A DNA stretch of 32,081 nucleotides from an uncultured Acidobacteriota bacterium (GCA_964518945.1 CAZFLB010000181.1:1-32081); one strand, 5' to 3'. Counted from the first letter of the stretch, positions 1,117 through 23,597 are shown. A program made the numbers and translations. Notes: generated by a model not told the origin, from the letters alone.

Positions 1117-2757
1117 ATGCAGTTGAGATGCTTGAGAGTTGCAAACTCGCTTCCCTTCCTTTTGTTGTTTTTTTCAGCTTCGTCCTTTCCTGAAGACGGA
1201 TTACCGGTAACGAGTGATTTGGTTCGTAGTGCTTGCGGGCCATGCCATGATACCGATGATAAAGGGCGAATGACACGGATTTCTTATGCACGCAAGACAC
1301 CTGAAGGATGGCAGCTTACTTTGAAAAGGATGATTCGAACCAATGACCTTGACTTAACACCAGACCAAGCAAGGCAGGTCGTGCGGTATCTGTCAGATAA
1401 CCATGGACTCGCACCTGAGGAGTCTAGGCCTTATTTTTATCATGCTGAGAAAAGACCTCAGCGTGAGATTATCGCTGATCAGCAGATTGTGGACACCTGT
1501 GTACGGTGTCATACAGGTGCGCGGTTTATGACTCAACGACGCACCTCAGAAGAGTGGAAGCTGCTAAAGGGTATGCACATCGGTTATTTCCCCGTGATAG
1601 AGTCGCAAACTTTCAGGGGGCCATCACCACTTGCTGATCCTGATGCATACGATTTAGATGGCATTGAAAACAAGTGGCGGGCAGATGTTGTGCTCGAAAA
1701 ACTTGCTAGTCAGTTCCCTTTTGAAACTCCGGAGTGGAAGGCATATCGCGCTAAGGGTTCTACACGCGAAATCGAAGGCCAATGGCTTCTGAAATCACGA
1801 GAAATAGGTAAAGGTCCTATAACAGGTATAGTGGTGTTTTCTGGGTCTGAAGGGAATTATACGTACACTGCTCAGATCAACCTCTCCGATGGTAGAACTA
1901 TTGAGCGTGAGGGGAGAGGTGTTCTTTACGGAGGATTTTCGTGGCGAGGCCGTTCAACTGGCCCTGTTTTCGGTGAGCGCCGTGAAGTAATGATGCTGTC
2001 TTCTGATGGTTCGCAACTGAGTGGACGGTTGTTTTATGGAAGCTATGGTGAATTGGGTGTGGATATTAGTCTTAAGCGTATTGGCACCGATCCTAAGATT
2101 GTGGCCGTTTGGCCCCGTTCGGCAAAGACCGGTAGTGGCGAAGTGAATCTTACTGTTTACGGTGCAAACTTTACAGACGAAGACTTGACCTTTGGCCAAG
2201 GGGTACAGGTCGTAAATATCAGAAATCGCTCAAAGACGATCCTTAATGTGACGGTCAATGTTGCAGAGGATGCACTTCTAGGTTATCGCGATGTGGCTGC
2301 AGGGCTTACGCAAGCAACTAATGCATTTGCCATTTATGATAGTGTCGATTATGTGAAAGTGATTCCCGAAGAAGCCTTGGCCCGAGTTGGTGGAGTGGGT
2401 GTTCCCAAACAATATATGAAATTTGAGGCGGTGGCCTATCATCGGGGTCCGGATAATGAATCTCTTACTGAAGACGATATTAAGCTAGGTGTTGTTCAAC
2501 CCGATTGGAGTATCGAGGAGTATCACATTCGTCATGGGGATGATGATAATAAGTATGTCGGGACAATCGGAAATAATGGCTTATTCACTCCAGCCGAGGA
2601 TGGGCCGAATCCTGACCGTGAGTTGAATGCTAACAATTTTGGAGATGTTTGGATTGTCGCAAGCTATAAGCCGGATGGTGCACAATCTGTTGTGCGGGGA
2701 CGTGCACTTCTAGTAGTGAGCATTCCAGTTTTTGTTTATTGGGATCTTTTACAGTGA
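1117..2757 (+). CDS. qhpA: Quinohemoprotein amine dehydrogenase alpha subunit (diheme c)
   Basis: GGAGG RBS, signal peptide, two CxxCH motifs (CGPCH, CVRCH), family motifs RISYARKTPEGW..RM, YLSDNHGLAPEE, ARVGG, GLFTPAEDGPNPDR, NNFGD. Confidence 0.95.
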   Translation: MQLRCLRVANSLPFLLLFFSASSFPEDGLPVTSDLVRSACGPCHDTDDKGRMTRISYARKTPEGWQLTLKRMIRTNDLDLTPDQARQVVRYLSDNHGLAPEESRPYFYHAEKRPQREIIADQQIVDTCVRCHTGARFMTQRRTSEEWKLLKGMHIGYFPVIESQTFRGPSPLADPDAYDLDGIENKWRADVVLEKLASQFPFETPEWKAYRAKGSTREIEGQWLLKSREIGKGPITGIVVFSGSEGNYTYTAQINLSDGRTIEREGRGVLYGGFSWRGRSTGPVFGERREVMMLSSDGSQLSGRLFYGSYGELGVDISLKRIGTDPKIVAVWPRSAKTGSGEVNLTVYGANFTDEDLTFGQGVQVVNIRNRSKTILNVTVNVAEDALLGYRDVAAGLTQATNAFAIYDSVDYVKVIPEEALARVGGVGVPKQYMKFEAVAYHRGPDNESLTEDDIKLGVVQPDWSIEEYHIRHGDDDNKYVGTIGNNGLFTPAEDGPNPDRELNANNFGDVWIVASYKPDGAQSVVRGRALLVVSIPVFVYWDLLQ

Positions 2758-4175
2758 TGTTGAATCTTGTTCACGCAGCAGAGTTTAAGCGTTTTAGGTC
2801 AGGAGACCGTGAGTTTGCTTTCCTTATCCCTTCGTCTATGGTGCTGGAATTAGATTCGGAAGTCGGAGCAATTCTTGATTCTCTTGAAAATGGTCCAGTA
2901 CCTATAGAGAAATTGGGTAAGACTCCTCAAGCTGTTAATGCATTACGAGAGCTTGGACGCGTTGGCGCGATCCGGCGAGATGATGCTCCTGATGTTGCTA
3001 TTAGTCAACTTGCCACCCCGGAAACTCCGCCACCGCTAAGCACAATTGTACTCAATGTTACAAACAGTTGTAATCTTAGCTGCCGTTATTGCTATGAATA
3101 TGGTGATGATCGACTTGAAGCTAAAGCAGCTCCACAGATAATGAACGAAGAGACTGCGCGGCAATCGGTTGATACTCTTTTCGCAGAATCTGGACGGAAC
3201 AATAAGTTGCAGATCACATTCTTCGGTGGAGAGACTCTTTTGAACTTCAAGGTGATTCGTCCCACTGTCGAATATGCACGAAGGAGGGCAAAAGAAGAGG
3301 GCAAGTTTGTTGATTTTAGTCTTACAACCAACGCTACGCTGCTGACGAGGGACATTAGCCAATGGCTTTCTGATAATCGTATTGGGGTGACTGTGTCTAT
3401 TGATGGTCCGAAAGAGGTCCAAGATAGCATGCGAATATATGGGAAGACCAATATGGGAAGCTATGATGTTGTTGCACCGCGCATCAAGGAGCTCTTGTCC
3501 TTGTATACGACACGTCCCATTGGGGCACGAGTGACCTTGACTTCTAAATTCATCGATGTGCCACGTATTTTTTCCCATTTAACAGAAGAAATGGGTTTTT
3601 ACGAAGTAGGATTTGCTCCTGTGACATCATCGGCAGGGCTTGATTATGCAATCGATGGTGGAGGATTTGATGAATTGCTGCGCCAATTCAAGAGTTTGGC
3701 AGGTCGCTATGTCGATGCAGCCTGTAAGGGAAAGTACCTAGGCTTTTCAAATTTAAGTGACATGCTTGGAGAAATACACAAGGGCGTTTCTAAAGCTTAT
3801 CCGTGCGGTGCTGGAATCGGACTGTTGGGCGTTGCTCCCAAAGGGGAGATAGGACTTTGCCATCGTTTTGCAGGAGCCGGGGATCACGATTTTGGCCATG
3901 TATCCTCTGGGATTGATAGCAAAAAGCGTGCTGAACATCTAACTCGTGGCCATATCGATAAGCGCACAGACTGCCATACCTGTTGGGTTCGCAGTCTTTG
4001 CTCGGGGGGGTGCTACCATGAAGCCCAGGTGCGTTATGGTGATCGGTTCCGTCCCAACCTTCATTATTGTGATTGGATCCGTGAGTGGACAGCACTGGGC
4101 CTTGATGTCTATGGGGAAATCTTGACTAACAATCCGGCGTTTCTTGACAGATTTGACGAAAGGAAGGTCGCATGA
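2757..4175 (+). CDS. qhpD: Radical SAM/SPASM maturase forming Cys-Asp/Glu thioether cross-links in QhpC
   Basis: CNLSCRYC radical SAM motif, FFGGETLLNF, SPASM cysteines (PCGAG..CHRF..CHTCWVRSLCSGGC..HYC), N-terminal RRE-like region. ATG 2757 overlaps the qhpA TGA; GTG 2754 is an alternative start. Confidence 0.95.
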   Translation: MLNLVHAAEFKRFRSGDREFAFLIPSSMVLELDSEVGAILDSLENGPVPIEKLGKTPQAVNALRELGRVGAIRRDDAPDVAISQLATPETPPPLSTIVLNVTNSCNLSCRYCYEYGDDRLEAKAAPQIMNEETARQSVDTLFAESGRNNKLQITFFGGETLLNFKVIRPTVEYARRRAKEEGKFVDFSLTTNATLLTRDISQWLSDNRIGVTVSIDGPKEVQDSMRIYGKTNMGSYDVVAPRIKELLSLYTTRPIGARVTLTSKFIDVPRIFSHLTEEMGFYEVGFAPVTSSAGLDYAIDGGGFDELLRQFKSLAGRYVDAACKGKYLGFSNLSDMLGEIHKGVSKAYPCGAGIGLLGVAPKGEIGLCHRFAGAGDHDFGHVSSGIDSKKRAEHLTRGHIDKRTDCHTCWVRSLCSGGCYHEAQVRYGDRFRPNLHYCDWIREWTALGLDVYGEILTNNPAFLDRFDERKVA

Positions 4176-4501
4176 AGCATTTGAAGGCTTGTAATCGTAA
4201 GGCAGAAGCCGTATTGGAGTTTTTGGAAGCTGAAGGTGGAAGCGTTGAGGCTCTACAACAAGACCGACCGCCACACTACCCGCCGGGCTGCACAACGATT
4301 TTCTCTCCGGGATGGGAGGTTGATGTGACAGGGGGTACAGCAGCGCTTTGCCAGCCAATGGAACGAGATCTCTATGACTGTTACAAGACTTGTTTTTGGC
4401 CCGCACAGGTTCCGGATTATTTGAATAATAATCCGGATTGGCATTCGGGTTGCGCAAGTGCTACACAGGATTGGCGCAAGATCGATCTCGTTTTTCCGTA
4501 G
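4172..4501 (+). CDS. qhpC: QHNDH gamma subunit precursor (leader + CTQ-bearing core)
   Basis: MKHLK..N.KA leader; core GCTTIFSPGWEVD..LCQPMERDLYDC...CFWPAQVPD; ATGA overlap with qhpD. Confidence 0.95.
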   Translation: MKHLKACNRKAEAVLEFLEAEGGSVEALQQDRPPHYPPGCTTIFSPGWEVDVTGGTAALCQPMERDLYDCYKTCFWPAQVPDYLNNNPDWHSGCASATQDWRKIDLVFP

Positions 4502-4526
4502 TCCGAAGGTTATCGTGGAACATTGG

Positions 4527-5612
4527 ATGAAAATTATTACCCGTGTCATCGTAATAACTCTCGTTTTTGGAGCCCCCGTTTTAGCTCAAGTAGAACCTAC
4601 CGTCTTCATTTGCGGTATCTGGCCGAATAAGATTTTGTTTTTTGATCAAACCACTGATCGATTCACAGATGCTTTGCAGTTGAACCACGGCGCTGTTACC
4701 AATGCAGCGTACACAAGTGATAAAAGTCGTTTTTTTGTTGTTACCGACCGGATGGAATCTGTTGAAGTTATAGACCCGGTTCGACGGGCAGTAATTGATG
4801 AATTCAAATTATCAACTGAGAACAGAAGAGTACGTATCTTTGGTGTATTTCCTAATCGTGAAGGAACAAAAGCTTACATAACCTTCAGTGCAACGGAAAT
4901 TAAAAGTGATCGTTTTGTTCGTAACGAAGAAGCTGATGTAGTCCTCTACGACCTCCGTAAGAAAAAAATTGTCGACCAATTCAAAATTCCTGATGAGGTT
5001 GCAGTGACCGGTAGGCCTCGGATTCATATCTCTCCCGAAGAAAAATCTATTTTTTTCATCGGAAGGGACATTTATGAAATGGATGCTGAGACTCACGAAG
5101 TGGTTGACAAATTAGAAATGTCAAAACCTATTCTTTCTGGTTACGGACCATTTCGCGGAGGTTTGAGTCTCACTGAAACTCAACCTGGAATTTTCTACGG
5201 TATCTATCGCACTGTCGATCCTTTCCAGAATAAGAAGATGTTTGGTATTGCCAAGCTAGATCTTTATGAAAAACAGATCACTTCTTTCGAATTAGGGCCT
5301 CAATTAAGACTTGGGCGCTTTGCGTTGTCTGCTGATGGCAAGAGAGGTTATGCGGGTTTGCACGACATGGTTGTCGTCGATATGGAAACTAAAAAGGTTT
5401 TACTGAAAAAAGAGGGTTTTGAGCGTGGCCGGACAAATATTTCTATGATTGTTTCTTACGATGGAACTAAACTCTACGTTTCGGGAGTTGGAGACACGAT
5501 GTGGGTGTACGATGCGAACTCGCTCGAGGAAATCACGTCTGTTTTTGCAGGAGGAGATTTTATGATGCCTCCGGTAGAGATACCAAACCCGAAGACTTCT
5601 GCTTCTCACTAG
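4527..5612 (+). CDS. qhpB: QHNDH beta subunit (beta-propeller)
   Basis: Start moved to ATG 4527, which gives the signal peptide MKIITRVIVITLVFGAPVLA. YVTN-like propeller repeats (VEVIDP, ALSADGKRGY, VSYDGTKLYV, WVYDANSLEE). Position follows qhpC. Confidence 0.85.
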   Translation: MKIITRVIVITLVFGAPVLAQVEPTVFICGIWPNKILFFDQTTDRFTDALQLNHGAVTNAAYTSDKSRFFVVTDRMESVEVIDPVRRAVIDEFKLSTENRRVRIFGVFPNREGTKAYITFSATEIKSDRFVRNEEADVVLYDLRKKKIVDQFKIPDEVAVTGRPRIHISPEEKSIFFIGRDIYEMDAETHEVVDKLEMSKPILSGYGPFRGGLSLTETQPGIFYGIYRTVDPFQNKKMFGIAKLDLYEKQITSFELGPQLRLGRFALSADGKRGYAGLHDMVVVDMETKKVLLKKEGFERGRTNISMIVSYDGTKLYVSGVGDTMWVYDANSLEEITSVFAGGDFMMPPVEIPNPKTSASH

Positions 5613-15563: not shown

Positions 15564-18257
15564 CTAAGCATCCTCCTTCAAACGATGGGCGATGATTGCC
15601 CCTTCCCGTTCACGGTTTTGTCGGCGGATGAAAATATAGACACCCAAGATAAACACGGGAATTGGCGGCAAGATCACAGCAAGCATTCGGATGCCGCTCT
15701 GTATAGTACGAATCTGTGATTCCATTCTAGTTTTACTGGCACGGATTTGAGCTTCTTTCTCAGCTTCGATATTGGTTTTTTGTACTTCAAAGCGACGATT
15801 CTCAATTTCCTGGAGATTACGGGCCATGATTTCTTTAGTTTGCGCGTCGAGGTCTTCACGATTTCTGACGGCTGCGACTTTTGTGTCAAGTCGCTGCTGT
15901 GCTTCCGCGAGTTCTTGATCAGCGAGACGTCCTGCATCAGACTCCTCGTTTGTACGTTGTTCTATAAAATTGCGTGTCTGTGCTTCGACGCGGGCTAGTG
16001 TTCGATGACGCATGCGGCGGTTACGTAGCGCGATAAAAGAGTCATCACCGACTAGGGTATCCATTGAATTTAGAAAGAACGTGACATTGTCAAAATTTAA
16101 GTTACCTGGGCCAACCCTTCGAATCTCGAAGAACTGTTCAGAGATGAAGTCGAGGTCAGTTACGACGATTACATGGAGAGGATTTACAGTGCTGTCAGTT
16201 TCGCCCTCTTTCTCAACGTTTTCTGTCAGTTGAGTAGTCGCAATTTCTGCTGCATAGGTGTAAATCCGGCCATCAGGCTGATGCGGCAAGTTGCGATTCA
16301 ATGACGCTCCTAAAAAGTTTCTCTGTACCATCTGAAAGTAAGGAAAACTCCCTGAGAAAGCGCCTGACTGAAGTAAGGGTTTGTAAGTCAACCCTTCAGC
16401 TGATGCGGATTCAATTTGTCCGGGGTAAAGCATTACCATTTGTTGGAGCGCTGAACTTGCAGGGTGTCCAACGTTAAACACGTCCGGGTTCTGGTTGCCA
16501 TCGCCAAGAAAAACCACTTCAGGGGGTAGGTGGGCTAGATCCGGATGAGGGTTGTAAGCATCCCATGTGATGCTAGCAGGATCCCATCTGAAACCTAATT
16601 CTGCGAGAAATGCTCTTATGTCACCTTTGGGTTGAGGTGGAGCTTGTTGTTGTTGCATGAAAGGATTTTGGCTAGCACCAGGTTGTTCCGATGGAGCCAG
16701 CCCTAGATTTACAATCGGAAGAGGGTCTACGAGTAAAAGAGCTGGAGTGCCTTTTTTGATGAAATTTCGCACGTTGTCCATTTCTGGTTGAGTTAGTGAG
16801 GATGGCAATGTCACAAGCAGACCGTCTACCTCCTCGGAAATTTCACTCGATGGGGTGATTTGAACGACTTCATACTGTTTCCTTAGTTCTTCAACCACTG
16901 ACCACGAAGGTGTTGACTGCATGGTGTTAAAGTCAAGTCCGCCAAACAGACGTAGTTGAGTGTTTATTACACCGACCTTTTTACGATTAGTGTTGGCAAC
17001 GACGCGTATACTTCTGGCGATTTCATATTCCGCTGGAAGTCCACGGTCAAAAAAAGGGATGACCTGTTCTTCGCCACCACTAGTGAAAGCGAATCCTAGA
17101 AAGACTTCCGAAAAGCCGGCCCGCGCACTGGAGAGGTTCGGTATCTCTCTTGGTTGGATGCCAAATTTTTCTAACGCTTCGCGAGCTTCTTCACTAAATG
17201 GCTCAGTATCATAAATTGCGACTTGGACTCGACCACCACTTGCAGAACTCATTTCTTTCAAGAGTCCAACAGCATTTGCTCGTGTTTGTACGTACTGCAC
17301 GGGTACGGTAGGGCTTACATATGCTTGCACAAAGACCGGTCGATCAGAGTCTATTTGTTTCAGAAGGCTTTTAGTCTCGCGACTAAGAGAGTGTATCCTT
17401 TCTGCAGTACCATCCACACGAATTCCAAGTCTTCCAATTATGGAGATTACTGACACAGCTATGACAATTGCTGCGCTGACACGGATGATATTGTGCGTCG
17501 ACAGGCGCATACCATTCATTGAACGCGGCCAATGTCGTCGGCTTAACAAAAGAACATTTATGTAGATAAACAAACATGTCACTGCCGAAAAATAGAGAAG
17601 ACCTGTAAGAGTGATTACGCCACGGCCAAAATCTTCGAAGTGGACAAATACTCCGAGAGGACCGACCAGGTTCGATAGAAAGTTACTTAATGTGCCTGTT
17701 ATTGCTTCAACAGAAGAAGCAATACTGCAGAAGATTGCACCTAGGATGAAAGCGATCGTTACATTACTTGAAAGTTGTGATGCCAACATACCGATGGCAA
17801 TGAGAGCTGCACCTATGAGCCAAAAACCAAGATAGTTGACGAACATCAGACCTAAGTCGGGACTGCCTAGCCATAAAAGCACTAAGACGTGACTAGCTGA
17901 AAGAAGGAGTGAAACAGTGTAAATGGAGAGCACTGCTGAATACTTACCTAAGACTATTTCCAGGTCTGTTGCTGGAAGCGTTAAAAGAAGCTCGTCGGTC
18001 CCTTGTTTTTTTTCTTCTGCCCAAACTGACATTGTTAAAGCTGGGACAAAGAAAGTTAGAAGGAATGGAAAGACGATGTTCAATTGATCTAAGTTCGCGA
18101 GGTTGTTAAGAAAAAAACGGTCCTGCCAAAATGCAGCGGCGGCACTTAAAAAAATGAACAAAGTTATGAAAACGTAGCCAGTTGGATTGTTGAAATACAT
18201 TTGCAGATCGCGCTTTGCTATGGCACGAACAACATTCCAGTTAATATTTTTAATCAT
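15564..18257 (-). CDS. Fused GldF-type ABC-2 permease and GldG-type (GIFT) periplasmic domain
   Basis: AIAKRDL..YF..PTGY, PALTMSVWAEEKKQGTDELLLTLP, IVLGKY; then RVDGT.ERIHSLS..T..LL, EYEIARSI, LLLVDP, N..FFLNSMDTL.GD; C-terminal TM. Confidence 0.88.
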   Translation of the reverse strand: MIKNINWNVVRAIAKRDLQMYFNNPTGYVFITLFIFLSAAAAFWQDRFFLNNLANLDQLNIVFPFLLTFFVPALTMSVWAEEKKQGTDELLLTLPATDLEIVLGKYSAVLSIYTVSLLLSASHVLVLLWLGSPDLGLMFVNYLGFWLIGAALIAIGMLASQLSSNVTIAFILGAIFCSIASSVEAITGTLSNFLSNLVGPLGVFVHFEDFGRGVITLTGLLYFSAVTCLFIYINVLLLSRRHWPRSMNGMRLSTHNIIRVSAAIVIAVSVISIIGRLGIRVDGTAERIHSLSRETKSLLKQIDSDRPVFVQAYVSPTVPVQYVQTRANAVGLLKEMSSASGGRVQVAIYDTEPFSEEAREALEKFGIQPREIPNLSSARAGFSEVFLGFAFTSGGEEQVIPFFDRGLPAEYEIARSIRVVANTNRKKVGVINTQLRLFGGLDFNTMQSTPSWSVVEELRKQYEVVQITPSSEISEEVDGLLVTLPSSLTQPEMDNVRNFIKKGTPALLLVDPLPIVNLGLAPSEQPGASQNPFMQQQQAPPQPKGDIRAFLAELGFRWDPASITWDAYNPHPDLAHLPPEVVFLGDGNQNPDVFNVGHPASSALQQMVMLYPGQIESASAEGLTYKPLLQSGAFSGSFPYFQMVQRNFLGASLNRNLPHQPDGRIYTYAAEIATTQLTENVEKEGETDSTVNPLHVIVVTDLDFISEQFFEIRRVGPGNLNFDNVTFFLNSMDTLVGDDSFIALRNRRMRHRTLARVEAQTRNFIEQRTNEESDAGRLADQELAEAQQRLDTKVAAVRNREDLDAQTKEIMARNLQEIENRRFEVQKTNIEAEKEAQIRASKTRMESQIRTIQSGIRMLAVILPPIPVFILGVYIFIRRQNREREGAIIAHRLKEDA

Positions 18258-19006
18258 TACTCCTGCTCCTTTACTACGGATTCCTCTGTAAGTCGCTGGA
18301 ACGGAAGCTCAAGAGAACCTTCCTCTTTTAGGTCGCTGGTCAGCCCTTCAAATACTAAACGGCCATTGTGTACAAAAATGACATAGTCTGCTATTGCATC
18401 GACTTCTTGAAGAATGTGCGTCGACACTAAAATTGTTTTTGAACTTCCAAGCTTTCTGATGTTCTGACGAAATTGGCGGATCTGATTTGGATCCAGCCCA
18501 GCAGTGGGTTCATCCATGATAAGAACATTAGGATCGTGGAGAAGGGCTTGGGCGAGACCAACGCGCTGGCGTAAACCTCGAGAGAGTTTGCTGATGGACT
18601 TTTCTAGAACATTGTGAAGATCGCAAAGTTCACACACTGCTTCTATGCGATCTTTTAGTTTCTGAGGAGCTAGTTCACGAGCCTCACCGAAAAACTCGAG
18701 AAGTTCGAGAGGAGTCATATCGAGATAGAGTGGCCCGTTTTCTGGAAGATAGCCGAGCTTTTTTGATGCTTCTATTCGTTCGGTGTGTATGTCGAGTCCT
18801 GCGATTTTGGCCGATCCTTCACTTGGAGCGAGATAGCCGGTGAGCATCTTCATTGTAGTTGTCTTGCCGGCACCATTTGGGCCAAGAAAGGCAACTACTT
18901 GGCCTTCAGGGATCGAAAAGCTGATATTTTCTATTGCAATGAAAGGGCCGTAGTACTTTGTTAGCCTACGAGCCTCTATCATCACTTTTGATGAATTTGA
19001 TTCCAT
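18257..19006 (-). CDS. ABC transporter ATP-binding protein (GldA-like)
   Basis: GPNGAGKTT, GYLPE..PLY, LSRGLRQRVG, ILMDEPTAGLDPNQI-type Walker B, STHIL. GGAGG RBS; 1-bp overlap with the permease. Confidence 0.93.
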   Translation of the reverse strand: MESNSSKVMIEARRLTKYYGPFIAIENISFSIPEGQVVAFLGPNGAGKTTTMKMLTGYLAPSEGSAKIAGLDIHTERIEASKKLGYLPENGPLYLDMTPLELLEFFGEARELAPQKLKDRIEAVCELCDLHNVLEKSISKLSRGLRQRVGLAQALLHDPNVLIMDEPTAGLDPNQIRQFRQNIRKLGSSKTILVSTHILQEVDAIADYVIFVHNGRLVFEGLTSDLKEEGSLELPFQRLTEESVVKEQE

Positions 19007-19286
19007 CTAGCAAAAACCTCCACCTGTAATTTATTGTAAGGATTAGTGCCTCTTTCCGGGGCTGGGATTGAGGTTTGTTTTTCTACAAGAAATTCTAGAA
19101 CAAGTATAGAAAAATACTACATAAACATATATTTCTAAACAAGTTTTTAGTTGAATTACATGAGATGATTTGTGTCATTTTGATTTTGTCAGTATGTTTA
19201 CAATATCTCGGTACTAATCCAACAAGCATCGTTGGTTCCTTGTTTGTTGTTTACCATATGAAATATTAAAGAGGAGGAAGCATTGT

Positions 19287-19943
19287 GTGATGGCTGATAT
19301 TAAATCACCTTTGGATGAAACTAGTATGCCCGAGGAAGAATATGCTGATTACATTATCGAGGGGGCGCGCTCAAGTCGTTCCAAATGCAAGACTTGTCGC
19401 AAGGCAATAGAAAAGGACGTTCTGCGGCTAGGCATACTCATAGAGGGACCATATGGGATTGGTTACTTGTGGCACCATTTAACCTGTGCTGCGAAGAGAC
19501 GAATTGATGATGTTGAGGTAGCTTTTGAACAGCAAGCTTGGGAAAAAGCAAAGTTGCGACCAAACAATATTCCTTCAATTGAGGAGATGCGCAGCATAAA
19601 TAAAAAATCTCAGTTGAAACGTGAAAATTCAAAAAAGATACCTTATGCAGAGTTAGACCCCTCTGGACGTGCCACGTGTAAGCATTGTGGAGAAATGATG
19701 GTGAAGGGTTTGCTGCGAGTTGTCCTTGGGCGTGAGATTGAATTTGGTTCCCAATATCGAACGATGCCAATCACTGTTCATGTTACCTGTGTCGCTGGAG
19801 AAATAGGAAAGGTTGATTGCAACACACGCTCAGAGGGTTTTGAAAGTTCTATTCGTAAGAATAGCGATGGGTTGACAGCAGAACAGATTCTGTCCGTGCT
19901 GGAAAACATAGGTGAGCTTCCAGAAGATGTTGATGGTAATTGA
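19287..19943 (+). CDS. Stand-alone protein with two PARP-type (CCHC) zinc fingers
   Basis: GAGGAGG RBS. Finger 1 C34-x2-C37-x26-H64-x2-C67 (IEGARSSRSKCKTC..I.K..LR..WHHLTC); finger 2 C131-x2-C134-x30-H165-x2-C168 (SGRATCKHC..K..LR..HVTC). Confidence 0.85.
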   Translation: MMADIKSPLDETSMPEEEYADYIIEGARSSRSKCKTCRKAIEKDVLRLGILIEGPYGIGYLWHHLTCAAKRRIDDVEVAFEQQAWEKAKLRPNNIPSIEEMRSINKKSQLKRENSKKIPYAELDPSGRATCKHCGEMMVKGLLRVVLGREIEFGSQYRTMPITVHVTCVAGEIGKVDCNTRSEGFESSIRKNSDGLTAEQILSVLENIGELPEDVDGN

Positions 19944-19959
19944 GTGGCAACGTTTTGAA

Positions 19960-21363
19960 CTAATCTCTAAGTTTTTCAAAAAGTTTGGAGTATTTTTTAC
20001 TTTTGGTTTCTATAGGAAGTGGATAGTTGCCAGTGAAACAAGCTGAGCAGTAGTTGTCAGCGTCGGAGCTTACTGATGTCATAAGACCTTCTTGTGACAG
20101 ATATGTGAGAGTGTCGGCATCGATAAATTTTGCAATCTCCTCGACGGAATGTGTAGATGCGATGAGTTCCTCTCTTTTTGGCGTATCGATACCATAGTGA
20201 CATGGACCAGTTGTTGGTGGTGATGAAACACAGAAATGGACTTCAGTAGCTCCTGCTTGTCGAAGCATTCCCACTATTTTACGACTGGTTGTTCCACGTA
20301 CGATTGAGTCGTCAATAAGGACGATTCGTCGTCCTTTGATTACTGAGCGAACTGGGTTGAGTTTTACTTTGACGCCAAAATGTCGAATGGATTGCCTCGG
20401 CTCGATGAAAGTGCGACCTACATAGTGGTTGCGGATAAGTCCAAACTCCATAGGTAATTCTGATTCTTGAGAGTATCCGATTGCAGCAACGACACCAGAA
20501 TCTGGGACGGGGACGACCACGTCTCCATCAACCAGAGCTTCTCGTGCTAGTTGACGTCCCATAGCTATGCGTGTTGCGTGTACATCTCGGCCGAACACGC
20601 GGCTATCTGGTCTGGCAAAGTAAACATGTTCGAATATGCAATGGGAAAGAGGTTTTTCTTCAAAGGGCCACAAAGAGCGTATACCCTTCTGATCTATGAC
20701 GATCATTTCACCTGGTTCTACCTCACGGATGTATTCTGCTTCTATTAAGTCTAAGGCGCAGCTCTCTGAGCAAAGCACGTAACTATCTTCGAGTTTGCCA
20801 AGAATCAGTGGTCGAAAGCCTCGTGGGTCACGAACGCCAACGAGAGAGTTTTCAGTTAGAAAGAGAAGAGAAAAAGCGCCTTCCACGTTTCGAACTGAGT
20901 CTAGGATTGCATCTTCACTGTTGGTCTTCGCAGATTTAGCATAAAGATGCAGTATTACTTCGGTATCACTCGTAGTTCGAAATATTGACCCGCGTTCGAC
21001 TAACTCGTGTCGGAGTATGTGGGCATTCACCAGGTTTCCATTGTGGCACACAGCGATCTCTCCAAATCGGCACTTTATGTAAATTGGCTGGATGTTGGAG
21101 TTGTTACTTTCTCCGGCAGTAGAATAACGTGTGTGACCGACAGCTTTTGTGCCAGAGAGTTTTTCGAGGGAGTGTTCATCAAATACGTCCGCAACATAAC
21201 CTTGGCGCTTTCGGCTTCGGAATCCACCTTGTGTGGAAGTGATGATTCCGGCGGCCTCTTGTCCACGATGTTGTAGTGCATAAAGACCGAGATAAACAAG
21301 CCGTGCTGCATCATGGTGTCCGAAGACACCGAATACTCCGCACTCATCAGAAAATCCGCTCAA
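19960..21363 (-). CDS. purF: Amidophosphoribosyltransferase (Bacillus-type, short propeptide, Fe-S cysteines)
   Basis: [65 protein letters not shown] 21363 overlaps the purL stop (TTGA); 21396 is an alternative start. Confidence 0.97.
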
Positions 21364-23597
21364 GTTGATAATGCCTTTTGGATGGCTGTCCGCCAAGTAT
21401 TTCGGAGTTCGCTTACTTCAGCGGAGATAGTATTAAACCCGTTTATATGGACATTTAGCTGGTCACCACCAGTTACACCGATGTGCGATATTGGGATGTG
21501 ATGCTCCTCGGAGAGTTCTGTAAAGGCATCCACTGATTTTGTTGAAACACTAACTAATATTCTGCTTTGAGTTTCTGAAAATAAAACGCTGGTTGCATGC
21601 CTTGTAGTTTCCAGTGTAATGGTTGCTCCCATAGTTTCTCCTAAGGGTCCAAATAAGCTTTCAACGATAGACACCCCTAGGCCTCCATCACTTAAATCAT
21701 GTGCTTGTTGAAAAAGTTGCAGTGAGACGGCCTCTTTCATAAAACTATGAAGTGCTGCTTCGGCATCGAGATCGATCCCGGGCGGACATCCATCAATTCT
21801 TCCGTGGATTGTTTTCAAGTATTCAGTACCCCCAAGTTCATCGCTCGTGTTTCCAAGAAGATAGATCAGATCACCTCTGTTTTTGAAATGGTGTTGGATA
21901 ATGTGAGCACCGTTATCAATTAACCCAACTACTCCAACGACAGGTGTTGGATAAATACCTTCGCCTTCAGTTTCGTTATAAAAGCTTACATTGCCCCCCG
22001 TAATTGGAATATTTAGCCGTTTGCACGCATCACGCATGCCATCAATAACACGGGCGAATTGCCACATAATTTCTGGCTTCTCTGGGTTGCCAAAATTAAG
22101 ACAGTTGGTGGCTCCGACGGGAAACGCTCCCACTGATGCTACGTTTCGACATGCTTCTGCAACAGCGATTACACCACCGAGATAGGGGTTTAGATACGCG
22201 TAACGGCCGTTGCCATCTAAACACATTGCTAGAGACAGTGGTGTTCCTTTGATTCGGATGACGCCAGCGTCTGAACCTGGAAGTACAATAGTGTTGCTGC
22301 GTACCATGTGGTCATATTGTTCGAAGACCCAATGTTTACTCGCAATGTTGTGACTTTCGAGCATTTTCACTAGGGTGTCCGGGATGTTATTAGGCTCATC
22401 GAGACAGTTCGAGCTAATGGGTTTTTGTGCTCTTAAGCGGGAAGGTTCTTTCTGCGCCCTATCGTAAACGGGCCCTTCGTCAACTAGGCAGCGGTTAGGA
22501 ACAGTTGCGACGGTGCTTTTGTCGGCAATAACACGGAGTAACCCGTCTTTTGTAACTTTTCCAATTGCACTCGCATCTAGGTCCCATTTTTTAAAAATAG
22601 TTTCGACCTCTTTTTCTTTCCCTGCTTTTGCAACGAGTAACATACGCTCTTGTGACTCCGACAAAAGTATTTCGTAGGGTGTCATTCGGGTCTCACGTTG
22701 AGGCACTTTGTCTAGGTCGATCTCGATACCAACTCCACCACGAGCACCCATCTCTGCTGTTGAGCAAGTTAAGCCTGCTGCACCCATGTCTTGAATCGCG
22801 ATCAATGTGTCGGTTGCCATAAGTTCGAGGCACGCTTCAAGCAAGAGTTTTTCGAGAAAAGGGTCTCCTACTTGGACGGTAGGCCTCTTCTCTTCCGCTG
22901 TTTCGTCAAACTCAGCAGATGCCATCGTTGCACCGTGAATACCATCCTTACCAGTTTTGGCACCGACATAAAAAACAGGATTACCTTCCCCTTCTGCCTG
23001 AGCAAGAAAAATACGATCTCTTGGGGCTATCCCAAGACAGAATGCGTTAACAAGTGGGTTTAAGTTGTAACAGTCTTCGAAAACCACTTCGCCACCAATA
23101 GTGGGAATGCCTATGCTGTTGCCATAACCTCCGATTCCAGAGACGACACCGGACAGAAGTGAGCGGTTTTTCGCATTGTGTAGGGGACCGAATCGAAGGG
23201 AGTTCATCAGAGCAAGAGGTCTAGCGCCCATAGTAAAAACATCTCTTATGATACCGCCAACTCCTGTTGCCGCTCCTTGATAAGGTTCTATGAAAGACGG
23301 ATGATTGTGTGATTCGACTTTGAACACGGCCGCGAGGTCATGGCCTATATCGATAACCCCGGCATTTTCTCCAGGGCCCTGAATGACTCGTGGACTCAGA
23401 GTTGGCAGCCGTTTTAAGTGAACGCGTGAGCTCTTGTAACTGCAATGTTCAGACCACATGACAGAGAATAAACCTATTTCGGTCTGGTTAGGGCTACGTC
23501 CTAACTTCTTAACGATAGCGTCATACTCATCACGTGTGAGGTTGTGTGCTGCGAGAGTTTGTTCGAGGGAGTTATTCAACAGCGCGCCGTGGTCCAC
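21360..23597 (-). CDS. purL: Phosphoribosylformylglycinamidine synthase subunit PurL (small type)
   Basis: [50 protein letters not shown]. Confidence 0.98.

What the first reader, a model, noticed from the sequence alone, without database searches (positions are those of the whole stretch)
19287..19943. Bacterial stand-alone tandem PARP-type zinc-finger protein resembling the PARP1 break sensor without a catalytic domain
Seen: two CCHC fingers joined by a basic helical linker. Finger 1 (YIIEGARSSRSKCKTCRKAIEKDVLRLG..GPY..WHHLTC) closely follows the recalled PARP1 Zn1 pattern (YRVEYAKSGRASCKKC..IPKDSLRMA..PMF..WYHFSC), including the backbone-grip Arg and an aromatic in the base-stacking loop (Y56; F153 in finger 2). 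Known: these fingers detect DNA nicks and breaks in eukaryotic PARP1 and ligase III. No ART, WGR, BRCT or ligase domain is fused or adjacent. Inference: an uncharacterised bacterial DNA-break sensor or adaptor acting in trans in repair or anti-phage signalling; also relevant to the origin of the PARP1 Zn1-Zn2 architecture.
Basis: partly seen in the sequence, partly recalled or inferred. Interest (0 to 1): 0.75.

Follow-up and report, generated by a model that had tools for sequence, protein, structure and literature searches.

The report
Bacterial two-finger PARP-type zinc protein
A marine acidobacterium carries a small, well-conserved gene made of nothing but the two zinc-finger domains that human PARP1 uses to find DNA breaks, so it probably binds broken DNA with no enzyme attached, and such bacterial proteins have not been tested at the bench.

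Summary
Window 19290-19943 (+) encodes a 217-aa protein made of two complete PARP-type zinc-finger domains: Pfam zf-PARP 71.5 bits against a cut-off of 39.3, and both CCHC ligand sets invariant in 28 homologues. The predicted fold matches PARP1 Zn1/Zn2. No other domain is present.

The gene stands alone between an ABC-transporter operon and purF. I found no PARP catalytic, WGR, macro, ATP-ligase or Ku gene in its 85%-complete genome.

It belongs to a conserved family of about 200-230 aa, found in Acidobacteriota (Vicinamibacteria) and Planctomycetota MAGs. That family sits inside a wider set of bacterial tandem-finger proteins. This scan flagged the same family earlier on another genome.

Most likely it is a non-catalytic binder of DNA nicks, gaps or ends. 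This is an inference from conserved DNA-contact residues.

- The "basic helical linker" is part of domain 1.
- A finger tree does not pair bacterial finger 2 with PARP1 Zn2.
- Nothing supports an anti-phage role.

One new lead: 58 of 121 near-length homologues end in an acidic tail plus [PA]PF, like the SSB C-terminal tip of the same organisms. The window's copy lacks this tip.

Verdict: new variant of a known kind, interest about 0.6.

The parts
19290..19943 (+). Coding sequence of the 217-aa tandem PARP-type zinc-finger protein (P0001), stop TGA included. An in-frame GTG lies at 19287.
19273..19277 (+). GGAGG ribosome-binding site, 12 nt before the ATG.
   Evidence: read from the sequence
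19007..19272 (+). Intergenic region shared with the divergent ABC-transporter operon. It presumably holds the gene's own promoter. The consensus scan found no + strand sigma-70-like site.
19290..19346 (+). Acidic N-terminal tail, residues 1-19 (pI 4.05). Low model confidence, variable among homologues.
19347..19628 (+). zf-PARP domain 1, residues about 20-113. It has a beta hairpin with CCHC ligands, then helices 64-86 and 97-113. Basic (pI 9.44).
19386..19487 (+). Finger 1 zinc-ligand span C33-C36...H63-C66, with R30 just upstream and Y55 at the hairpin tip.
19635..19919 (+). zf-PARP domain 2, residues about 116-210. It includes the C-terminal helices 184-191 and 197-207.
19677..19790 (+). 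Finger 2 zinc-ligand span C130-C133...H164-C167, with R127 upstream and F152 at the hairpin tip.
19920..19940 (+). Short acidic C-terminal end (residues 211-217, ending EDVDGN). It lacks the [PA]PF tip that most close relatives carry.
19941..19958 (+). Stop TGA followed in frame by four codons (V-A-T-F) and a second TGA. Possibly the remnant of a lost xPF tip.
   Evidence: the TGA is unchanged in the run X12 variant

Best explanation
The gene encodes a non-catalytic DNA-binding protein that is the bacterial counterpart of the PARP1 Zn1-Zn2 DNA-binding module: two complete PARP-type CCHC zinc-finger domains and nothing else.

The most likely mechanism has three steps.
1. Each domain binds one zinc through its CCHC ligands. 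Shown: the ligands are invariant.
2. Each domain recognises a DNA discontinuity (nick, gap or end) independently of sequence. It would do so through an arginine contacting the backbone and an aromatic residue at the hairpin tip stacking on exposed bases, the two domains together covering both sides of a break. Inferred from PARP1.
3. The bound protein acts in trans by marking, shielding or handing over the break, not by chemistry of its own. Inferred.

In most close relatives a flexible acidic tail ending in [PA]PF, like the SSB C-terminal tip, could recruit SSB-client enzymes. The window's own copy has lost that tip, so here shielding or competition at breaks is the simpler reading.
For: - Domain identity: zf-PARP at 71.5 bits against a cut-off of 39.3, in two stretches. 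The best solved relatives are PARP1 F1F2, at E 5e-14.
- Fold: the AF2 model has mean pLDDT 91.1 and pTM 0.73. All 26 Foldseek PDB hits with E<=1e-3 are PARP1 zinc-finger entries. The top hit is PARP1 N-terminal domains on nicked DNA, 9mi8, at E 6.7e-11. The DNA ligase III finger follows at E 1.8e-3.
- Structural alignment: VIA-align gives 3ode_A (Zn2 on DNA) at Z 9.4, rmsd 3.4 A, over 88 residues. 2n8a aligns over 169 residues, model 14-210.
- Conserved contact residues: all eight zinc ligands, R27, R46, W61, R127, R143, R148 and F152 are invariant in 28 homologues. R30 is at least 90% conserved. R30 aligns with PARP1 R18 and R122. A review names these as the phosphate backbone grip, and F44 and the Zn2 loop hydrophobics as the base-stacking loop (passages of PMC8150716).
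- Selection: there are 450 homologues of 119-380 aa at E<=1e-3, and the 120 listed all carry PF00645. An ortholog-level match (E<1e-60) is present in 15 of 18 genomes of the same family. A population variant (run X12) has 14 coding differences, 7 synonymous, none at a ligand.
- Stand-alone: only 4 longer forms were found, all uridine-kinase fusions. No partner gene is shared across phyla.
- Precedent: S. pombe Hpz1 is a PARP-type finger plus an acidic C-terminus with no PARP activity, and its deletion is UV- and HU-sensitive (PMC3435320, abstract and section 5).
Against: - No experiment exists for any bacterial member that my searches could find.
- Finger 2 alone is below the Pfam cut-off (27.8 bits), and phmmer did not align it to PARP1.
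- Domain 2 is slightly acidic, pI 5.66.
- No DNA-repair gene is a consistent neighbour. The window's neighbours are an ABC transporter and purine-biosynthesis genes.
- I could not define an SOS operator, so damage induction is untested.
- The model places the two domains differently from PARP1 F1F2 on a nick: rmsd 9.7 A over both domains, Foldseek TM 0.32.
- PARP1 fingers also bind intact and non-B DNA and RNA (recalled), so the fold does not by itself prove break specificity.
Confidence: 0.6

Rival explanations
1. It is a general DNA-architectural or regulatory protein. It would bind undamaged or non-B DNA (hairpins, cruciforms, promoter DNA) and affect transcription or nucleoid structure, not repair.
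For: The gene is monocistronic in a housekeeping setting with no repair neighbours. Domain 1 is basic, pI 9.44. PARP1 is described as also binding undamaged DNA and as a chromatin architectural protein (abstract of PMC6135609 in the listing).
Against: The residues kept invariant are those PARP1 uses at breaks. There is no helix-turn-helix or other sequence-reading domain. The family is patchy: ortholog-level matches in 6 of 401 sampled genomes of the phylum, which is unlike a core nucleoid protein.
Confidence: 0.2
2. The fingers have been re-used for something other than DNA. They would bind RNA or serve as a zinc-stabilised protein-interaction module.
For: Finger 2 is divergent (27.8 bits alone). 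All bacterial second fingers form a separate, long-branched group in the tree. Domain 2 is acidic.
Against: The arginine in the R-x-x-C register, a second invariant arginine and the hairpin-tip aromatic are kept in finger 2 as well. Model residues 116-209 superpose on DNA-bound Zn2 at Z 9.4.
Confidence: 0.1
3. It mimics the PARP1 DNA-binding fragment and is aimed at eukaryotic cells (grazers or hosts). It would occupy their DNA breaks as a dominant-negative.
For: It is the same module as the N-terminal PARP1 DNA-binding domain. The window's genome is small and of low G+C compared with its kin: 2.79 Mb and 45% G+C in the window, against 4.5-10.2 Mb and 58-64% G+C in 15 kin loci, L015-L027 and L047.
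Against: The N-terminus is acidic with no signal-peptide-like stretch. The carriers have large genomes and come from marine and other environmental metagenome assemblies. The holders of this stretch are marine plankton metagenomes. The bacterial fingers form their own clades, not nested in eukaryotic ones.
Confidence: 0.04
4. It is the sensor part of an anti-phage or other conflict system.
For: None found beyond the general idea that DNA-end sensors occur in defence systems.
Against: The only PADLOC hit for P0001 is E 0.0034, 15.1 bits. There is no tblastn match in 50,697 phage records. The flanks are transporter and purine genes. Neighbours differ between phyla and include none I recognised as a defence gene among the clusters I annotated.
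Confidence: 0.03

Closest known systems
Human PARP1 zinc fingers Zn1-Zn2 (F1F2; PDB 2n8a, 4av1, 3od8, 3odc/3ode, 9mi8)
   Same: Two tandem zf-PARP domains at similar spacing. CCHC ligands. An arginine in the R-x-x-C register and a hydrophobic or aromatic residue at the hairpin tip. The second finger has a longer ligand span than the first: 38 against 34 here, 39 against 36 in PARP1-like sequences.
   Different: No Zn3/PADR1, BRCT, WGR or catalytic domain. Sequence identity is only 21-25% in the structural alignments. Bacterial finger 2 does not group with Zn2 in the tree. The Zn1 aspartate D45, needed for PARP1 activation according to the review, aligns with I57 in the alignment, so it has no acidic counterpart here.
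S. pombe Hpz1 (PMC3435320)
   Same: A small protein with a PARP-type finger, no PARP activity and an acidic C-terminal region. It acts in trans in the response to UV and hydroxyurea. This is the nearest studied 'finger without enzyme'.
   Different: It is eukaryotic and is described with one PARP-type finger domain, not two. I did not compare the sequences, because none was at hand from a tool.
DNA ligase III-alpha zinc finger (PDB 1uw0) and plant ZDP-type 3'-phosphatases (zf-PARP + PNK3P)
   Same: The same finger fold, used as a nick or break sensor: 1uw0 at Z 6.3. PNK3P fusions appeared among the representatives.
   Different: There the finger is fused to the enzyme it serves. Here it is free.
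Other bacterial tandem zf-PARP proteins of 175-200 aa (for example P0163, P0178, P0184), whose nearest ESM Atlas clusters are mostly Myxococcota
   Same: Homologous over the full length. Both fingers group finger by finger with those of this family. They are zf-PARP-only proteins.
   Different: About 30% identity. No acidic [PA]PF tail in the four sequences I read. Also unstudied, and some carry the source label 'exonuclease VII small subunit' without any XseB match.
C-terminal tip of bacterial SSB
   Same: 58 of 121 near-length homologues end in an acidic run plus [PA]PF. The SSBs of the same acidobacterial family end in acidic residues plus VPF.
   Different: The window's own protein ends EDVDGN and lacks the tip. 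That the tip binds SSB partners is recalled knowledge about E. coli SSB, not tested here.

Membership tests
zf-PARP domain family (Pfam PF00645) | Profile match above the curated cut-off | tested here: met
   71.5 bits against 39.3 for the whole protein. Finger 1 alone scores 45.6 bits. Finger 2 alone scores 27.8 bits, E 4e-6, below the cut-off on its own.
zf-PARP domain family (Pfam PF00645) | C-x2-C ... H-x2-C zinc ligands in each finger | tested here: met
   C33/C36/H63/C66 and C130/C133/H164/C167, all invariant in 28 sequences. The spans are 34 and 38 residues.
zf-PARP domain family (Pfam PF00645) | The zf-PARP fold: beta hairpin with zinc site plus a helical C-terminal part | tested here: met
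   This rests on a predicted model only, pLDDT 91.1. All 26 Foldseek hits at E<=1e-3 are PARP1 zinc-finger entries. Z is 9.4 to Zn2 and 8.5 to Zn1.
zf-PARP domain family (Pfam PF00645) | Binds zinc and recognises DNA strand breaks | not testable with these tools
   Needs purified protein.
PARP1-type break-activated ADP-ribosyltransferase | PARP catalytic domain in the protein or the genome | tested here: not met
   The protein has no other Pfam domain. PF00644 was not found in the 85%-complete genome, but that control rang in 0 of 14 genomes, so the genome-level blank is weak.
PARP1-type break-activated ADP-ribosyltransferase | WGR domain, or macrodomain/PARG-type erasers, in the genome | tested here: not met
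   WGR was not found, with the control ringing in 2 of 14. Macro was not found, with the control ringing in 8 of 14. PARG was not searched. The genome is 84.9% complete.
Finger-guided repair enzyme (ligase III or ZDP type) | Finger fused to, or encoded beside, a ligase or 3'-phosphatase | tested here: not met
   No such domain in the protein or its neighbours. No ATP-dependent ligase and no Ku were found in the genome.
Proteins carrying an SSB-like C-terminal tip | Extreme C-terminus of acidic residues followed by x-P-F | tested here: not met
   The window's protein ends EDVDGN. The feature is met in 58 of 121 homologues and in 11 of 56 genome loci.
Known anti-phage defence proteins (PADLOC-DB 2.0) | Significant match to a defence-system model | tested here: not met
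   The best hit is E 0.0034, 15.1 bits.

The most novel reading that the evidence does not exclude
In its usual form this family is a 'break-SSB'. It would be a nick or end sensor built from two PARP-type fingers that carries a copy of the SSB C-terminal tip (an acidic run plus [PA]PF). Through that tip it would bring the enzymes that normally dock on SSB (helicases, nucleases, primosome and recombination mediators) to lesions that expose no single-stranded DNA. That would be a bacterial, ADP-ribose-free analogue of PARP1 signalling, in which a peptide tip replaces the polymer as the recruiting signal. The window's marine lineage would have lost the tip through a stop codon: in-frame V-A-T-F follows the TGA. 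That loss would leave a pure break-capping protein.
Probability: 0.2. Interest if true: 0.8.

Novelty: new variant of a known kind. Interest (0 to 1): 0.6.

Why it matters
PARP-type fingers are the textbook eukaryotic sensors of DNA strand breaks, and they are always discussed as parts of PARP1, ligase III or plant ZDP.

Here the same two-domain module is under strong conservation as a free protein in bacteria. In this genome I found no PARP catalytic, WGR, macrodomain, ATP-dependent ligase or Ku gene.

If it does bind breaks, it shows what the module does on its own. It would also give a small, enzyme-free nick or end probe, and it would reveal an unrecognised step in bacterial break handling.

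The SSB-like tip in most relatives gives a concrete, cheap-to-test idea of how such a sensor could signal without ADP-ribose.

For the origin of PARP1, the finger tree argues that the bacterial and eukaryotic tandems arose by separate duplications, or that bacterial finger 2 diverged beyond recognition. It does not support inheritance of the tandem as a unit.

Tried and rejected
- SOS regulation. I looked for LexA-type boxes recalled from other phyla (GTTC-N7-GTTC, GAAC-N4-GTTC, CTGT-N8-ACAG) upstream of the gene. Only two one-mismatch matches turned up. The upstream regions of the genome's own lexA and recA show no such box. Across the family's two lexA types, GTTC-N7-GTT[CT] occurs in 3 of 18 and 0 of 12 upstream regions. 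No operator could be defined, so damage induction is untested, neither for nor against.
- Conserved partner. BLAST clustering of ORFs from 56 loci plus the window found no neighbour shared across phyla. My ORF picking was crude in high-G+C DNA: the target itself was recovered in only 33 of 57 sources, and one large cluster mixed kinase/TPR genes with likely shadow ORFs.
  - The commonest neighbour is a deoxyhypusine/homospermidine-synthase-like gene directly upstream in 14 loci (Pfam-checked in two).
  - Then come NadA (9 loci), a GT2 glycosyltransferase (9) and xseA (7). These loci mostly bear Planctomycetota titles.
  - A PHP / CehA-McbA-like hydrolase gene lies upstream in 8 acidobacterial loci by shared 3' end sequence. 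It was Pfam-checked in two, is below the NCBIfam cut-off and has no PDB relative.
  - I read all of these as lineage synteny.
- Source label. 'Exonuclease VII small subunit' on two distant homologues has no XseB match at E up to 5.
- 'TGA inside' three ortholog matches. These are only the normal stop codons read through by the search.
- Expression. No RNA holder is listed. Two runs labelled metatranscriptomic are marked 'probably DNA'.
- Defence and phage. There is nothing significant.
- Literature. Searches found no study of a bacterial zf-PARP protein. One search was badly posed, because taxon words swamped it.
  - Perina 2014 (PMC4245714, passages) describes bacterial PARPs as mostly WGR plus PARP domains, and the passages I saw mention no zinc fingers in them.
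  - Aravind 2012 (PMC3417536, passages) does not mention the finger.
  - PMC3435320 says only that the motif occurs 'even in bacteria'.
  - Subscription journals are not covered by these searches.

Full report
**The gene**

Window 19287/19290-19943 (+) is an open frame of 218/217 codons. A GGAGG sits 12 nt before the ATG at 19290. The 94%-identical homologue P0002 is 217 aa. I therefore take the ATG as the start and number from it.

The gene is transcribed divergently from an ABC-2-type transporter operon (18257-19006 and 15564-18257, minus strand). It converges on purF (19960-21396, minus strand), which is followed by purL, purQ, purB, purE and purD homologues. The consensus scan gave no + strand promoter-like site and no terminator after the gene.

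**Domain identity**

- Pfam gives zf-PARP at E 1e-19, 71.5 bits, against a cut-off of 39.3, in two stretches. No other domain is significant.
- Taken alone, the N half scores 45.6 bits and the C half 27.8 bits, E 4e-6.
- NCBIfam has no family for it.
- phmmer against all PDB chains returns 15 distinct sequences at E up to 1. All are PARP1 zinc-finger constructs, plus the DNA ligase III finger. The best is 2n8a (F1F2 on a single-strand break) at E 5.3e-14. Both PARP1 fingers align to the query's first finger only.
- An AlphaFold2 model built on a 28-sequence alignment has mean pLDDT 91.1 and pTM 0.73.
- Foldseek against the PDB gives 26 hits at E<=1e-3, all PARP1 zinc-finger entries. The best is 9mi8, PARP1 N-terminal domains on nicked DNA, at E 6.7e-11.
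- In VIA-align, model residues 116-209 cover the whole Zn2 domain: 3ode_A residues 111-200, Z 9.4, rmsd 3.4 A, 88 residues. 2n8a aligns over 169 residues of model 14-210, but at rmsd 9.7 A.

The protein is therefore two complete zf-PARP domains, roughly residues 20-113 and 116-210. They lie between an acidic, disordered N-terminal tail and a 7-residue acidic end. The relative placement of the two domains in the model differs from DNA-bound PARP1. I could not inspect inter-domain confidence.

**Conserved residues**

In the 28-sequence alignment (mean column identity 65%) these are invariant: the eight ligands C33, C36, H63, C66, C130, C133, H164, C167, and also R27, R46, W61, R127, R143, R148, F152, C177 and T179. 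R30 and Y59 are at least 90% conserved.

In the HMMER alignments R30 pairs with PARP1 R18 and R122. Y55 falls next to F44 of Zn1, and opposite the leucine of the Zn2 loop. A structural review names R18/R122 as the phosphate backbone grip, and F44 and the Zn2 loop hydrophobics as the base-stacking loop (PMC8150716, passages). Its Zn2 numbers, L161/I164, do not fit the chain numbering, where the loop lies near 151-154, so I do not lean on them.

R127 stands in the same R-x-x-C register before finger 2, and F152-G153 mirror Y55-G56. Domain 1 is basic (pI 9.44) and domain 2 is not (pI 5.66).

**Distribution**

- The word-indexed search found 450 homologues of 119-380 aa at E<=1e-3 among 617 candidates. 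The 120 listed are 165-279 aa and all carry PF00645. Where named, they are 'hypothetical protein' or the bare domain name, and the named organisms are Vicinamibacteria and Acidobacteria MAGs.
- Searching longer proteins gave only 4 hits, all fused to a uridine-kinase domain.
- A profile search of 1.84 billion representatives gave 885 proteins at E<=1e-3, 219 at <=1e-10 and 34 at <=1e-30.
- In one-genome-per-species contigs, 56 loci encode a relative. By record title, 18 are Acidobacteriota, including Candidatus Marinacidobacterales (class Vicinamibacteria), Vicinamibacteria and Polarisedimenticolia. A further 28 are Planctomycetota, 1 is Eiseniibacteriota, 1 is labelled Glaciecola and 8 are unclassified. 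All are MAGs. That scan depends on two peptide patterns, so it is a lower bound.
- The window's genome is a 2.79-Mb, 337-contig assembly, 84.9% complete, with this single zf-PARP gene.
- Among 18 other genomes of its family, 17 have some match and 15 have an ortholog-level match (E<1e-60). The two other families of the order give 2 of 8 (weak, about 30% identity) and 0 of 14.
- In an even sample of the phylum, 26 of 401 genomes match at E<=1e-5 (this count includes the unpublished G192). Only 6, the window's own included, are at ortholog level.
- The family is thus patchy but strongly conserved where present. It is shared by two phyla at 45-55% identity.
- The nearest ESM Atlas clusters are zf-PARP-only proteins of 181-195 aa, mostly from Myxococcota.
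- This scan had already flagged the same family on another genome, with the same reading (e1-3386612). I reached the points above from my own calls.

**Relation to eukaryotic fingers**

I cut 87 single fingers from the following groups:
- 10 members of this family;
- 12 short bacterial-type proteins;
- 9 proteins of 533-996 aa, of which the 6 I scanned show nothing but an N-terminal tandem in Pfam (one is named as a Deltaproteobacteria MAG);
- 6 PARP1-like sequences, of which the 4 I scanned carry PADR1, BRCT or SAP;
- 4 ZDP-like sequences (PNK3P).

In the maximum-likelihood tree all 31 bacterial second fingers are one side of a branch with 100/99 support. All 31 bacterial first fingers form a group with 99/100 support. 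The eukaryotic Zn1, Zn2 and ZDP fingers lie with the first fingers, unresolved.

Only 85 columns were used, and the bootstrap had not fully settled. The tree is unrooted. The origins of the unnamed groups are inferred from domain content. With those cautions:
- the bacterial tandem is old and shared by all bacterial subfamilies;
- no orthology between bacterial finger 2 and PARP1 Zn2 is visible;
- rapid divergence of finger 2 could mimic this result.

**Partners**

In the window's genome I found no PARP catalytic domain (the control rang nowhere, so this is a weak blank). I also found no macrodomain (control 8 of 14), no WGR (control 2 of 14), no ATP-dependent ligase (control 6 of 14) and no Ku (control 1 of 14). 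The genome is incomplete, so these are 'not found', not 'absent'.

Neighbourhoods differ by lineage. None of the neighbour clusters I annotated is a repair enzyme in an operon with the gene. xseA lies nearby on the opposite strand in 7 loci that mostly bear Planctomycetota titles. PADLOC and phage searches were negative.

**A new lead: the C-terminal tip**

- Of 121 near-length homologues, 52 end in PPF and 6 in APF, each after a variable acidic run. Another 11 end in PD[LI], mostly within I-D-I-K-P-D-[LI]. Most of the rest stop right after the last helix.
- In the genome loci the [PA]PF tip is seen in 11 of 56, all with acidobacterial titles. None of the Planctomycetota-titled loci has it.
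- SSB of the window's genome and of four relatives in its family ends in acidic residues plus VPF. Two further [PA]PF-carrying acidobacterial genomes also end in VPF, though one of them appears to be the same assembly as one of the four relatives. A Polarisedimenticolia-like genome has ...DDIPF and a planctomycete ...DDTPF.
- In the window's genome, of 2,586 ORFs of at least 100 codons only 2 end in PF. Only SSB has the acidic-xPF form.
- The length-variable acidic linker with an invariant tip is the signature of a short docking motif. In E. coli the SSB tip is the docking site for many repair and replication proteins (recalled).
- The window's protein and its 94% relative lack the tip (ending EDVDGN and EDVDDN). 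In the window the TGA is followed in frame by V-A-T-F and a second TGA. A 97%-like population variant keeps the TGA. I read this as a lineage-specific loss.

**Population and habitat**

The stretch is held by marine plankton, marine and seawater metagenome runs from 6 studies. In the run X12 variant, the 14 coding differences are 7 synonymous and 7 not. The non-synonymous ones lie at codons 8, 9, 13, 94, 174, 197 and 202, none at a ligand or at R30, R127, Y55 or F152.

**Verdict**

The function is inferred. I put about 0.6 on a non-catalytic binder of DNA discontinuities. The rivals are a general architectural or regulatory DNA binder (0.2), a re-used RNA or protein-binding module (0.1), a eukaryote-directed mimic (0.04) and a defence part (0.03).

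The nearest studied case of a PARP-type finger without an enzyme is S. pombe Hpz1 (PMC3435320; abstract and section 5 read). That paper remarks that the motif occurs 'even in bacteria'. I found no study of a bacterial member.

It is a new variant of a known kind: a known domain in an unstudied stand-alone bacterial form.

Noticed in passing
window 19941-19958: The stop TGA is followed in frame by V-A-T-F and a second TGA. Most close relatives end in an acidic run plus [PA]PF, so this may be the remnant of a tip lost through a nonsense change.
   Followed up: partly
P0003-P0060; L015-L027 and L047: An acidic tail ending in [PA]PF is seen in 58 of 121 homologues. It resembles the acidic-VPF tip of the SSB proteins of the same acidobacterial family (L071-L075, L077, L078).
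   Followed up: partly
L030, L062; P0074, P0087, P0097, P0099, P0100, P0106, P0108, P0115, P0119: A second, different C-terminal motif (I-D-I-K-P-D-[LI]) occurs in a Polarisedimenticolia-like subgroup. SSB in one such genome ends ...DDIPF, so this tail is not an SSB copy. Its meaning is unknown.
   Followed up: no
P0122-P0125; P0218, P0237: Rare fusions of the tandem fingers occur: to a uridine-kinase domain (4 proteins) and, in more distant relatives, behind a 5-formyltetrahydrofolate cyclo-ligase domain. They may be real fusions or merged gene calls.
   Followed up: no
P0168, P0176, P0182, P0193, P0195, P0204, P0215, P0256: These proteins of 515-973 aa have the bacterial-type tandem fingers at the N-terminus and no other Pfam domain. 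P0182 is named as a Deltaproteobacteria MAG protein. The long C-terminal parts are unexplained.
   Followed up: no
P0126: A 1376-aa protein with 11 zf-PARP stretches and a weak C-terminal PNK3P fragment.
   Followed up: no
L080, L102-L112 (upstream of the second lexA-type gene): A stretch of about 45 nt before one of the two LexA-like paralogues is nearly identical across the whole family, the low-G+C window genome included. It is a candidate promoter and operator of unknown specificity.
   Followed up: partly
whole window and G000: The window is 45% G+C and its genome is 2.79 Mb (85% complete). Genomes of the same family are 4.5-10.2 Mb, and 15 kin loci (L015-L027, L047) are 58-64% G+C. This looks like a streamlined marine planktonic lineage.
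   Followed up: no
window 1117-5612: A quinohemoprotein amine dehydrogenase alpha-subunit gene is followed by a radical-SAM gene and an ORF without a Pfam match, then an ABC exporter and a subtilase fragment. This looks like a QHNDH maturation cluster.
   Followed up: no
P0276, P0277; L038, L046, L049, L050, L052, L058, L067: One source names distant homologues 'exonuclease VII small subunit', though no XseB profile matches. Separately, xseA lies 1-7 kb from the gene in 7 loci. This is probably a mislabel and synteny.
   Followed up: partly
PMC8150716, section 2.1: The review gives the Zn2 base-stacking residues as L161/I164. By the chain numbering in the alignment, C162 is a zinc ligand and the loop hydrophobics lie near 151-154.
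   Followed up: no
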